A stretch of 47,808 bases of DNA, from the IMG/VR virus record IMGVR_UViG_2778261394_000006, positions 1-47,808 of that record. One strand, written 5' to 3'. This DNA comes from a virus. Its lineage: Duplodnaviria; Heunggongvirae; Uroviricota; Caudoviricetes. Below are positions 37,717 to 38,523 of the stretch, piece after piece; position 1 is the stretch's first letter, and each line of letters starts with the position of its first letter. The translations under genes were made by a program, and so were the position numbers. The notes under the pieces were generated by a model. That model ran no database searches and was not told the origin of the DNA. It saw nothing but the letters and a program-made list of their open reading frames with translations.

Positions 37717-38523
37717 TTACCCCCTGAAGCCTGGCGGGATCGCACTATCCGGTAACGAGACGGTGTTAACCTGTCGGAGTAACGTCTCAGGTCGAACACC
37801 TTTCGGCGCGAACAAGCCCTGGTATTCATTGGCGATGCTGTGTCGAATCACCTGCTCAGGTGAAAAACCCTGCTGGCGGAATTTTTCCAGCTCCCGTATC
37901 GCCCCGTTAGCGCCCTGCTCCGTTCGAATCGGTTTTCGCAATGCCTGGCGAAATTCAACCCACTCACGCCAAAGCGAGACAGAAATCCAGTTCGGCAAAG
38001 CAATATCCAGAGGGTCAAACTTTTTGACACCTCGATTCCCCCGGGGGGGATTTAGGGGGGGATCTGTTTTTAGATCTTTATCTGTATCTTTATTAGTTGC
38101 CTTTGTGTTGACATCATGTTCAAACACCACTTCAACATCTGTTTGAACACCTGTTAAATTTCTCTCTTGTTTTGTTTGAACATCTGTTTCCTTTCTGCTT
38201 CTTCTGGCCTGAACAGATGCTTTTCCTGCGGCTGATTTTTTGGTTAATTTTTCCCTGACTGATGCCAGATCTTCCTCAATCCGAAGATGCACCCATTCCT
38301 CGCCGTTATCGCAAAAAAACTCCTGCAAGGATGGTTCAACATCAGCCCATCGCTCGTTAGTCAGACGGGCAATTTTTGCCAGCCTGTTTTTAGGTATTGG
38401 CTTTCCTGTTTGCCAGTAATTGAACATCAGCAACAAATACGCACCATGCTCCTCTGCTGACAAATGCATGGTGTCAGCCAGGTAATCAGCTATGTACAGT
38501 TGCATGTATGGTAATGCGGCCAT
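37717..38523 (-). CDS. ydaU: Replication initiator O-like protein (YdaU-like)
   Basis: Position between ydaT and the DnaC-like gene; iteron-like repeats within its linker-coding region; start uncertain (38523 or 38574). Confidence 0.6.
   Translation of the reverse strand: MAALPYMQLYIADYLADTMHLSAEEHGAYLLLMFNYWQTGKPIPKNRLAKIARLTNERWADVEPSLQEFFCDNGEEWVHLRIEEDLASVREKLTKKSAAGKASVQARRSRKETDVQTKQERNLTGVQTDVEVVFEHDVNTKATNKDTDKDLKTDPPLNPPRGNRGVKKFDPLDIALPNWISVSLWREWVEFRQALRKPIRTEQGANGAIRELEKFRQQGFSPEQVIRHSIANEYQGLFAPKGVRPETLLRQVNTVSLPDSAIPPGFRG
38038..38215. repeat. Putative replication origin: iteron-like TGTTYRAACA repeats plus G-rich/AT-rich segment with two GATC sites
   Basis: TGTTCAAACA at 38117, TGTTTGAACA at 38140 and 38173, AACATCTGTTT twice; ggggggg...gatctgtttttagatctttatctgtatc. 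Confidence 0.5.

What the first reader, a model, noticed from the sequence alone, without database searches (positions are those of the whole stretch)
38038..38215. Putative replication origin inside the O-like gene
Within the linker-coding part of the ydaU-like initiator gene there are three copies of the palindromic decamer TGTTYRAACA (38117, 38140, 38173) and repeated AACATCTGTTT units. Next to them is a G-run / AT-rich segment with two GATC sites (38041-38095). The layout parallels lambda, where ori iterons lie within the O coding sequence.
Basis: partly seen in the sequence, partly recalled or inferred. Interest (0 to 1): 0.45.

Follow-up and report, generated by a model that had tools for sequence, protein, structure and literature searches.

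The report
Rac prophage replication origin inside ydaU
The repeats inside the Rac prophage gene ydaU are very probably the phage's replication origin, laid out like phage lambda's but run by an unrelated initiator protein family (DUF1376) that has no assigned function.

Summary
TGTTYRAACA occurs three times in 47.8 kb, all within 66 bp (38117, 38140, 38173), against 0.41 expected. The sites lie in the linker-coding part of ydaU, next to the least stable 40-bp stretch of the replication module.

Four results point to a DNA-level element:
- Synonymous-codon shuffles reproduce the three sites in 1 of 5000 trials.
- The motif is read in different codon phases.
- In 79 non-redundant DUF1376 initiator genes, GTT(N1-2)AAC sites occur 110 times in the linker, against 24.5±4.5 in shuffles. 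They are spaced 11, 22 or 33 bp apart and are followed by an in-frame hexanucleotide tract.
- In natural domain swaps the repeats follow the initiator's N-terminal domain, not YdaT, YdaV or the C-terminal domain.

The N-terminal domain models as a winged helix. The C-terminal tail resembles DnaT, and the partner YdaV is DnaC-like. The layout nearly superimposes on lambda O/ori-lambda, although YdaU is not a lambda O homologue.

Rac is known to have an active origin, oriJ. I could not verify whether it has been mapped to these bases. The G-run and GATC sites are not supported as origin parts.

Verdict: interpretation supported; new variant of a known kind; moderate interest.

The parts
38173..38182 (-). 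Site 1: palindromic decamer. The coding strand reads TGTTCAAACA, translated as (D)VQT in codon phase 0. It is the most variable of the three among alleles.
   Evidence: Exact match. Four variable columns among 18 Rac-type alleles.
38140..38149 (-). Site 2: palindromic decamer. The coding strand reads TGTTCAAACA, translated as (G)VQT in phase 0. The GTT..AAC core is invariant.
   Evidence: The only allelic change is T to C at the outer position. It corresponds to the conserved GTTCAAC site of relatives.
38117..38126 (-). Site 3: palindromic decamer. The coding strand reads TGTTTGAACA, translated as V-F-E-H in phase 2. It lies 23 bp from site 2.
   Evidence: It is read in a different frame from sites 1 and 2. 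The allelic changes are the centre TG to CG, which keeps the palindrome, and the outer T to C.
38053..38104 (-). AT-rich tract with degenerate hexamer periodicity. The coding strand reads ...AATAAAGATACAGATAAAGATCTAAAAACAGAT, translated as NKDTDKDLKTD. It is the candidate DNA-unwinding element and contains the GATC sites at 38061 and 38073.
   Evidence: The least stable 40-mer of 36900-39400 is 38059-38099 (dG -45.1, z +2.47, top 1% of the window). Homologous (ACAGAT)n-type tracts occur in 52 of 79 relatives, against 3 of 79 in a control region.
38038..38060 (-). G/C homopolymer runs. The coding strand reads CCCCCCCTAAATCCCCCCCGGGGG, translated as PPLNPPRG. They lie within the variable segment just 3' of the C-terminal module junction and are probably not an essential origin part.
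   Evidence: The runs travel with the YdaV-type C-terminal module (L002/L003). They are absent in the L001 type, replaced by an in-frame insert in L124, and have one unit duplicated in L088.
38185..38523 (-). Coding region of the YdaU N-terminal DUF1376 domain plus a long helix. It is the predicted origin-binding winged-helix domain.
37717..38037 (-). Coding region of the YdaU C-terminal domain. It is shared with 'O-like' replisome organisers and carries a DnaT-like tail (…NTVSLPDSAIPPGFRG). It is the predicted helicase-loader recruitment module.
   Evidence: tblastn matches to O-like replication proteins over aa 172-285. PHROG 678 'replication initiation O-like'. Match to the DnaT C-terminus, E 0.003. 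It co-varies with the loader type.
36964..37710 (-). ydaV: DnaC/IstB-type AAA+ helicase-loader homologue, 6 bp downstream of ydaU.
   Evidence: Pfam IstB_IS21 and Bac_DnaA. NCBIfam PRK12377 at 504.9 bits; DnaC equivalog at 306.9 bits, below its 357 cut-off.
39355..39384 (-). Promoter-like site (TTGACA-18-TAATAT) upstream of ydaS. Transcription from it would read through ydaS, ydaT, ydaU (and so the origin) and ydaV. It overlaps the RacR operator repeats.
   Evidence: Consensus scan. Operator-like repeats at 39356-39443. RacR represses ydaS/T, and ydaU-W are derepressed on racR silencing (preprint 10.64898/2026.09.06.749655, read).

Best explanation
The segment at about 38053-38182 is the vegetative replication origin of this Rac-type lambdoid prophage, most likely the historical oriJ. 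It is embedded in the linker-coding part of its own initiator gene, ydaU.

Inferred mechanism:
1. When RacR repression is lifted, the ydaS-ydaT-ydaU-ydaV operon is transcribed through the origin.
2. YdaU's N-terminal DUF1376 winged-helix domain binds the palindromic TGTTYRAACA sites. It probably binds as a dimer, given the palindromes and the long helix that follows the domain. The sites are spaced 23 and 33 bp apart, roughly on one face of the helix.
3. The resulting nucleoprotein complex destabilises the adjacent AT-rich, hexamer-periodic tract (38059-38099), the weakest duplex in the module.
4. YdaU's C-terminal DnaT-like domain recruits the DnaC-like loader YdaV with host DnaB onto the opened DNA.

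Shown here: the sequence anatomy, the statistics, the conservation, the co-variation and the fold prediction. Inferred: binding, unwinding, loader recruitment and the identity with oriJ.
For: **The sites are real and exceed chance.** Three exact sites occur within 66 bp and nowhere else in 47.8 kb.

**The protein sequence does not explain them.**
- Synonymous shuffles give 3 or more decamers in 1 of 5000 trials.
- The motif is read as VQT in phase 0 and as VFEH in phase 2.

**The layout holds across the family.**
- In 79 non-redundant DUF1376 genes there are 110 GTT(N1-2)AAC sites in the linker, against 24.5±4.5 in synonymous shuffles (maximum 36).
- Site density is 4.26 per kb in the linker against 0.49 per kb in the rest of each locus.
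- All three codon phases are used.
- Adjacent spacings are 11-11.5 bp (9 cases), 22-23 bp (35) and 33-34 bp (10), with 7 others.
- The most diverged clades (Alphaproteobacteria-type genomes and several metagenome-assembled genomes, including a spirochaete) carry different motifs in the same place, such as GCGAACGCA, AGCAATGC and CTACG/CGTAG. An in-frame hexanucleotide tract always follows.

**Natural domain swaps assign the repeats to the N-terminal domain.**
- L001 shares 97% of the N-terminal domain but only 15-33% of YdaS, YdaT, the C-terminal domain and the loader. It keeps the same three sites.
- L002 and L003 share 85-96% of YdaT, the C-terminal domain and YdaV but only 16-18% of the N-terminal domain. 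They carry a different repeat set: GTTAC/GTAAC five times, phases 0,0,1,0,2, reached by 11 of 5000 shuffles.

**The weakest duplex sits next to the sites.** The least stable duplex in the module lies directly 3' of the sites.

**Lambda control.** The annotated iterons lie at 39-48% of O, in phases 0,2,2,1, and the least stable 40-mer starts 3 nt after them. Rac has its sites at 42-52% of the gene and its least stable 40-mer 7 nt after the degenerate GTCAACAC element at the end of the repeat array, about 19 nt after site 3.

**Protein parts fit the roles.**
- The N-terminal domain is a winged helix.
- The C-terminal tail resembles DnaT.
- The C-terminal type pairs with the loader type: YdaV with the YdaU-type C-terminus, and lambda-P-like with the Pfam DnaT-domain C-terminus.

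**Published context.** Rac has an active origin, oriJ (PMC3945230). Lambda-type origins consist of iterons plus an AT-rich tract in the middle of O (PMC7466680). A phage record, vB_EcoS-683R6, carries a 99.3% identical gene annotated as replication protein O.
Against: There is no experimental evidence here for binding or for replication.

- Rac-type alleles do not show a significant deficit of substitutions in sites 2 and 3: 3 of 20 variable columns against 24 of 90 (p = 0.39). Site 1 is disrupted in several alleles.
- The de novo spacing test is only modest (odds ratio 1.8, p = 0.004), and homology among the sequences inflates its controls.
- The family sequences are related, so the counts are not independent events.
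- There are only three short sites, fewer and shorter than lambda's four 18-bp iterons.
- A published 'oriJ' PCR probe lies in ydaV, at 37299-37453, not in ydaU.
- Recent papers call K-12 Rac replication-defective.
- No DnaA box or IHF consensus lies nearby.
Confidence: 0.75

Rival explanations
1. The true Rac origin (oriJ) lies elsewhere in the replication region, for example within ydaV or in an intergenic region. On this reading the ydaU repeats are vestigial or serve another purpose.
For: De Paepe et al. 2014 describe primers 'framing oriJ' that map to 37299-37317 and 37435-37453, inside ydaV. The RefSeq MG1655 record carries no oriJ feature that could settle the position.
Against: The ydaV amplicon has ordinary composition (GC 0.47-0.57) and no notable repeats. 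A copy-number PCR probe 0.6-0.9 kb from the origin would serve equally well. In a 14-kb de novo scan, the only stronger repeat cluster is the racR-ydaS operator region. The conservation and the co-variation with the initiator domain are specific to the ydaU linker.
Confidence: 0.1
2. The repeats are binding sites for YdaU itself, or for another regulator, and act in gene regulation rather than in replication initiation. Examples would be autoregulation or a roadblock that controls ydaV expression.
For: Palindromic 10-bp sites are typical operators. Co-variation with the N-terminal domain would also be expected for autoregulatory sites.
Against: The sites lie in the middle of the coding sequence, not at a promoter. 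No promoter-like site was found there. They are always followed by the least stable or simple-sequence tract. The arrangement matches lambda's origin in position and polarity. YdaT can be excluded as the binder: it is 91-94% identical in the loci where the repeats are replaced.
Confidence: 0.07
3. There is no DNA-level function. The repeats are a by-product of a low-complexity, repetitive protein linker (VQT…VQT, TDTDTD), and the AT-richness only reflects Lys/Asp/Thr/Asn codons.
For: The linker peptide is low-complexity, and its hexamer tracts vary in copy number like microsatellites. The allelic-variation test is not significant.
Against: Synonymous shuffles rarely reproduce the sites: 1 of 5000 for the window, and 110 against 24.5±4.5 for the family. 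The same DNA motif encodes different peptides in three frames: VQT, RST, xLN, VE and VFEH. Lambda's proven iterons behave in the same way. A non-homologous N-terminal domain brings a different, and also significant, repeat set.
Confidence: 0.04
4. The conserved segment is mainly a recombination junction. On this reading it is a 'linker' sequence kept because it allows exchange of initiator N-terminal and C-terminal modules among lambdoid phages, and it does not function as an origin.
For: Mosaic breakpoints fall exactly at the end of the AT-rich tract, near window 38075. Megablast matches split there. Three C-terminal arrangements join there in both N-terminal families.
Against: A junction role explains the conserved GATCTAAA…CCCCCTAAATCCCCC segment. 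It does not explain the clade-specific phased palindromes upstream of it or their link to the N-terminal domain. In lambdoid phages the origin is itself the module junction, so the two roles are compatible.
Confidence: 0.04

Closest known systems
Phage lambda ori-lambda within gene O (O/P system), including Stx-phage variants
   Same: - The origin sits inside the initiator ORF, in the interdomain linker: 39-48% of O against 42-52% of ydaU.
- Repeated sites with dyad symmetry are read in several codon phases.
- The least stable, A-rich (coding strand) tract lies immediately 3' of them.
- The N-terminal domain goes with the repeats and the C-terminal domain with the helicase loader.
- The gene lies downstream of the cro/cII-like genes and is transcribed from the immunity-region promoter.
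   Different: - YdaU's N-terminal domain is DUF1376, not Phage_rep_O (hhalign probability 0.1%).
- It has three 10-bp palindromes on an approximately 11-bp register, where lambda has four 18-bp iterons 20-24 bp apart.
- The C-terminus is DnaT-like and the partner is a DnaC-type AAA+ loader, not lambda P.
oriJ, the active origin of the Rac prophage, known from oriJ plasmids (Diaz and Pritchard 1978-79; Potrykus et al. 2000; cited in PMC11014345 and PMC3945230)
   Same: Same prophage and the same replication region. The segment described here is the obvious sequence candidate for oriJ.
   Different: I could not read the primary papers, so I could not check whether oriJ was ever mapped to these nucleotides. 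The only coordinates I found, PCR primers said to frame oriJ, lie in ydaV, 0.6-0.9 kb away.
Iteron-type plasmid origins with winged-helix Rep initiators (pSC101, RK2, pPS10, staphylococcal multiresistance-plasmid RepA)
   Same: A winged-helix initiator, repeated binding sites next to an AT-rich unwinding element, and host DnaB loading. A plasmid Rep winged helix (4pta_D) is among the structural neighbours.
   Different: Plasmid iterons are usually 17-22-bp direct repeats that lie outside the rep gene. Here the sites are short palindromes inside the initiator's own coding sequence.
Host primosomal protein DnaT and the DnaC helicase loader
   Same: YdaU's C-terminal 19 residues nearly match the DnaT C-terminus. 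The sister allele L001 carries a Pfam DnaT domain. YdaV is a close DnaC relative.
   Different: DnaT acts in PriA-dependent restart without sequence-specific origin binding. In YdaU the DnaT-like part is fused to a site-specific winged-helix domain.

Membership tests
Lambda-type origin embedded in the initiator gene (architecture) | The origin lies inside the initiator ORF, in the segment between the DNA-binding domain and the loader-binding domain | tested here: met
   The sites lie at gene nt 342-407 of 807 (counted from M18), between DUF1376 (aa 22-104 of the 285-aa ORF) and the C-terminal homology (from about aa 172). Lambda's iterons lie at nt 349-433 of 900.
Lambda-type origin embedded in the initiator gene (architecture) | Several repeated sites with internal dyad symmetry, above chance | tested here: met
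   Three exact palindromic decamers against 0.41 expected. Reproduced in 1 of 5000 synonymous shuffles.
Lambda-type origin embedded in the initiator gene (architecture) | An AT-rich, easily melted tract directly 3' of the repeats in the coding direction | tested here: met
   The least stable 40-mer of the 2.5-kb module is 38059-38099. Position and polarity match lambda.
Lambda-type origin embedded in the initiator gene (architecture) | Repeats co-vary with the initiator N-terminal domain, and the C-terminal domain co-varies with the helicase loader | tested here: met
   Natural swaps in L001, L002 and L003. The loader types are YdaV and lambda-P-like.
Lambda-type origin embedded in the initiator gene (architecture) | The initiator binds the repeats, and the segment supports replication in cis | not testable with these tools
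   This needs EMSA or footprinting and a mini-replicon assay. The literature says only that Rac has an active oriJ.
Lambda O protein family (Pfam Phage_rep_O, PF04492) | The N-terminal domain matches the Phage_rep_O profile | tested here: not met
   YdaU hits only DUF1376. Lambda O hits PF04492 at E 5.7e-36. Profile against lambda O: probability 0.1%.
DUF1376 (Pfam PF07120) | Profile match above the gathering score | tested here: met
   92.2 bits against a cut-off of 30.1, aa 22-104.
Winged-helix DNA-binding fold (N-terminal domain) | Helix-turn-helix core plus a beta-hairpin wing in a confident model, with winged-helix structural neighbours | tested here: met
DnaT-like C-terminal module | Match to the DnaT DNA-binding domain or C-terminal tail | tested here: inconclusive
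   The tail matches DnaT chains at E 0.003-0.01. There is no Pfam or NCBIfam DnaT hit for YdaU itself. The L001 allele does hit PF17948.
DnaC-type helicase loader (YdaV) | Match to the DnaC equivalog model above its cut-off | tested here: not met
   DnaC equivalog at 306.9 bits, below its 357 cut-off. The subfamily PRK12377 is met at 504.9 against 389. YdaV is therefore a DnaC-like paralogue, not DnaC.
oriJ (Rac origin, defined by function) | The segment lies within the DNA fragment that drives oriJ plasmids | not testable with these tools
   The primary papers are not held. The MG1655 record has no feature for it.

The most novel reading that the evidence does not exclude
DUF1376 is a large, unrecognised family of origin-binding winged-helix initiators. 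It is found in prophages across Proteobacteria and appears in metagenome-assembled genomes assigned to other phyla.

Each member carries its own origin inside its linker-coding sequence, with a fixed grammar:
- 2-5 short palindromic sites on an 11-bp register, with a clade-specific sequence: GTTSAAC, CTACG/CGTAG, GCGAACGC or GCAATGC.
- Directly after them, an in-frame hexanucleotide microsatellite such as (ACAGAT)n, (GAAGAG)n or (CACTCA)n.

The microsatellite would serve as the unwinding or single-strand-binding element. Its slippage-prone copy number could tune origin firing, and its end is where the C-terminal modules are exchanged. On this reading a Pfam 'unknown function' family gains both a function and a readable protein-DNA specificity code.
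Probability: 0.5. Interest if true: 0.6.

Novelty: new variant of a known kind. Interest (0 to 1): 0.45.

Why it matters
- It narrows the long-known but, as far as I could find, unmapped Rac origin oriJ to about 130 bp. In E. coli K-12 MG1655 this is about 1,421,511-1,421,640.
- It proposes a function and a recognition sequence for DUF1376/YdaU, a widespread domain of unknown function. In the curated K-12 record the gene is still named only by that domain.
- It bears on current work on racR, ydaS and ydaT toxicity, where Rac is treated as replication-defective. An intact origin plus initiator and loader genes means derepression could fire replication on the chromosome. That could contribute to the observed copy-number peak and to the toxicity.
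- The natural domain swaps and the clade-specific sites offer a ready system for studying initiator-origin specificity.

Tried and rejected
1. **Extra degenerate copies.** The apparent copies on the 11-bp register (GTTGAAGT at 38129-38136, GTCAACAC at 38105-38112) are not supported. They differ from the decamer at more than 2 positions, they vary among alleles, and copies with up to 2 mismatches are not enriched.
2. **GATC/Dam sites as an origin feature.** They are not enriched in the family: 48 of 79 against 40 of 79.
3. **G-run as an origin element.** It is absent or replaced in equivalent modules.
4. **Purifying selection on the sites within Rac-type alleles.** The test is underpowered and not significant (p = 0.39).
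5. **De novo spacing test.** The effect is modest, and homology among the sequences inflates the controls.
6. **DnaA boxes and IHF sites near the origin.** None was found.
7. **YdaT as the binder of the palindromes.** Excluded by co-variation.
8. **Homology of DUF1376 to lambda O.** Not detectable.
9. **Literature.**
   - Searches for oriJ mostly returned an author named Orij.
   - Potrykus et al. 2000 is not held.
   - No searchable paper links ydaU or DUF1376 to an origin.
10. **Homologue search.** The first homologous-protein run returned mostly truncated proteins. I therefore took the DNA-level data from the search for related loci instead.

Full report
**Locus**

The window region 36.1-40.0 kb is the immunity and replication module of a Rac-type lambdoid prophage. 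All genes are on the minus strand except racR.
- racR: 39452-39928, plus strand.
- ydaS: 39032-39328.
- ydaT: 38587-39009.
- ydaU: 37717-38574.
- ydaV: 36964-37710.
- A DUF1627 gene: 36180-36992.

The ydaU segment is 99.8-99.9% identical to its best matches in complete E. coli genomes. The MG1655 record holds the same gene order. ydaU is annotated there only as a 'DUF1376 domain-containing protein', and no origin feature is annotated.

**Observation**

TGTTYRAACA occurs exactly three times in 47,808 bp, at 38117, 38140 and 38173. Chance expectation is 0.41, and 0 of 100 shuffles reached three. The 14-nt unit containing AACATCTGTTT occurs twice, and ATCTGTTT three times. GC falls to 0.32-0.37 across 38060-38200. 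The G/C runs and the two GATC sites are present. Relaxing the pattern to 2 mismatches gives no enrichment (75 found, 86 expected), so there are three real sites and no more.

**Is it DNA-level or protein-level?**

Shuffling synonymous codons within ydaU reproduces three decamers in 1 of 5000 trials. Sites 1 and 2 are read as GTT-CAA-ACA (VQT), and site 3 as G-TTT-GAA-C (VFEH), which is a different codon phase. The annotated iterons of lambda behave the same way, in phases 0, 2, 2 and 1.

**Family-wide conservation**

I fetched 160 loci that encode DUF1376 initiators, from genomes and viral contigs, and reduced them to 79 genes with less than 90% linker identity.
- GTT(N1-2)AAC sites cluster at gene nt about 340-410, at 4.26 per kb against 0.49 per kb elsewhere in the loci.
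- There are 110 sites, against 24.5±4.5 in synonymous shuffles (maximum 36).
- All three codon phases are used, encoding RST, VQT, xLN or VE.
- Adjacent spacings are almost all 11, 22-23 or 33 bp.
- More diverged clades carry other short palindromes in the same place and on the same 11-bp register: GCGAACGCA, AGCAATGC and CTACG/CGTAG.
- Directly 3' there is an in-frame hexanucleotide tract such as (ACAGAT)n, (GAAGAG)n or (CACTCA)n. It occurs in 52 of 79 linkers, against 3 of 79 N-domain control regions. Rac's AATAAAGATACAGATAAAGAT is a degenerate version.
- An unbiased 8-mer repeat search gives 24 of 79 linkers with 4 or more copies. The control regions give 3 of 79 and 1 of 67, and shuffles give 0 of 79.

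The sequences are related, so these counts overstate the number of independent events. The frame changes and motif changes are the stronger argument.

**Natural domain swaps**

E. coli genomes hold mosaics that break near window 38075.
- L001 has the same N-terminal domain (97% identical) but a different YdaS (23%), YdaT (33%) and C-terminal domain (21%, a Pfam DnaT domain). Its partner is lambda-P-like. It keeps all three sites and the AT-rich tract.
- L002 and L003 keep YdaT (91-94%), the C-terminal domain (85-86%) and YdaV (93-96%), but have an unrelated N-terminal domain (16-18%, PHROG 2509).
  - Their linker carries five GTTAC/GTAAC pentamers, in phases 0,0,1,0,2 (11 of 5000 synonymous shuffles), followed by (GAAGAG)n.
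  - The shared GATCT…CCCCCTAAATCCCCC segment comes after that.

So the repeats follow the N-terminal domain and nothing else, which rules out YdaT as their binder. The C-terminal type pairs with the loader type.

**Duplex stability and lambda control**

The least stable 40-mer of the 2.5-kb module is 38059-38099, directly 3' of the sites in the coding direction (z +2.47, top 1% of the window).

In lambda, the annotated iterons lie at nt 349-433 of O, and the least stable 40-mer of O starts at nt 436. In ydaU, counted from M18, the sites lie at nt 342-407 and the least stable 40-mer starts at nt 425. Both tracts are A-rich on the coding strand. The lambda architecture is as described in PMC7466680.

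**Proteins**

- It is not detectably related to lambda O.
- The YdaU C-terminal third matches 'O-like' replication proteins of other lambdoid phages. Its last 19 residues match the DnaT C-terminus.
- YdaV is a DnaC-like AAA+ protein.
- A promoter-like site upstream of ydaS would drive transcription through the origin. racR silencing derepresses ydaU-W.

**Literature**

Rac is stated to possess an active origin, oriJ (PMC3945230; reference to Potrykus et al. 2000 in PMC11014345). I could not read the primary papers. The only coordinates I found are PCR primers said to frame oriJ. They lie in ydaV at 37299-37453, a segment with no notable repeats or AT-richness. No searchable paper connects ydaU or DUF1376 with an origin. 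Recent papers call K-12 Rac replication-defective, while also reporting a transient rise in Rac copy number.

**Weak or negative results**

- Substitutions among Rac-type alleles do not significantly avoid sites 2 and 3 (3 of 20 against 24 of 90 variable columns, p = 0.39). The changes seen are T to C at the outermost position and a palindrome-preserving TG to CG at the centre. Site 1 is disrupted in four alleles.
- GATC is not enriched in the family.
- The G-run is absent in L001-type genes and replaced by an in-frame insert in L124-type genes.
- No DnaA or IHF consensus was found.

**Conclusion**

The segment 38053-38182 is most probably the Rac-type origin, a lambda-like 'origin inside the initiator gene' built from non-homologous parts. 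I put the confidence at about 0.75. The architecture, the statistics, the conservation, the co-variation and the fold are shown. Binding, unwinding, loader recruitment and identity with oriJ are inferred. It is a new variant of a known kind, and of moderate interest. The family-wide grammar of DUF1376 origins is the more novel lead.

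Noticed in passing
window 39356-39443: Five copies of TATTAGGC-type repeats lie in the racR-ydaS intergenic region. This was the strongest repeat cluster in a 14-kb de novo scan. It probably corresponds to the RacR operators (four inverted repeats) described in PMC11014345, and it overlaps the promoter-like site at 39355-39384.
   Followed up: partly
window 38523-38574: The annotated 285-aa ydaU ORF probably starts 17 codons too early. Nearly all of the homologues examined begin at the equivalent of M18 (MAALPYMQ…).
   Followed up: partly
L028, L031, L032, L034, L036 (gene starts at 2501): Some DUF1376 initiators carry an in-frame insert after the N-terminal domain that looks like a T5orf172/GIY-YIG domain; I did not confirm this with a domain search. 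Their genes are packed with CTACG/CGTAG motifs, 9-13 per roughly 1-kb gene out of 15-17 per locus, and many use rare codons. A second cluster lies directly upstream of the (ACAGAT)n tract. This may be an alternative iteron set, or target sites for the inserted domain.
   Followed up: partly
L124 2450-3649; also L187, L190, L195: An in-frame insert of about 115 aa (…RIDIVVTDRNGVRCGIELD…) replaces the G-run exactly at the end of the AT-rich tract. It gives only a weak restriction-endonuclease-like Pfam hit (E 0.06). It occurs in both N-terminal families. HNH domains fused to DUF1376 also appeared among the protein hits (P0045, P0064, P0085). Nuclease-like domains seem to insert repeatedly into these initiator genes.
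   Followed up: partly
L143, L153, L156; L166-L245 (e.g. L213-L215, L219); L088: The copy number of the in-frame hexamer tract varies among close relatives: (ACAGAT) about 4-8 copies, (GAAGAG) from 2 to more than 7. L088 duplicates the CCCCCCCTAAAT unit. Several alleles are truncated or frameshifted around these simple repeats and homopolymer runs (L009, L087, L212-L215). This suggests slippage-driven variation or inactivation of the initiator.
   Followed up: no
window 36180-36992, and the left 36 kb of the window: The DUF1627 (ydaW-like) gene is intact at 270 aa, whereas K-12 has a truncated ydaW followed by rzpR and trkG. The closest genome carries terminase, portal, lysis and Q-antiterminator genes next to this module. 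This prophage therefore looks far more complete than K-12 Rac, and its replication module may be fully functional.
   Followed up: partly
window 37717-37775 (YdaU C-terminus): The last 19 residues of YdaU (RQVNTVSLPDSAIPPGFRG) nearly copy the C-terminal tail of host DnaT (RDVNTVSEPDSQIPPGFRG). This suggests the phage protein mimics a host primosome contact.
   Followed up: partly
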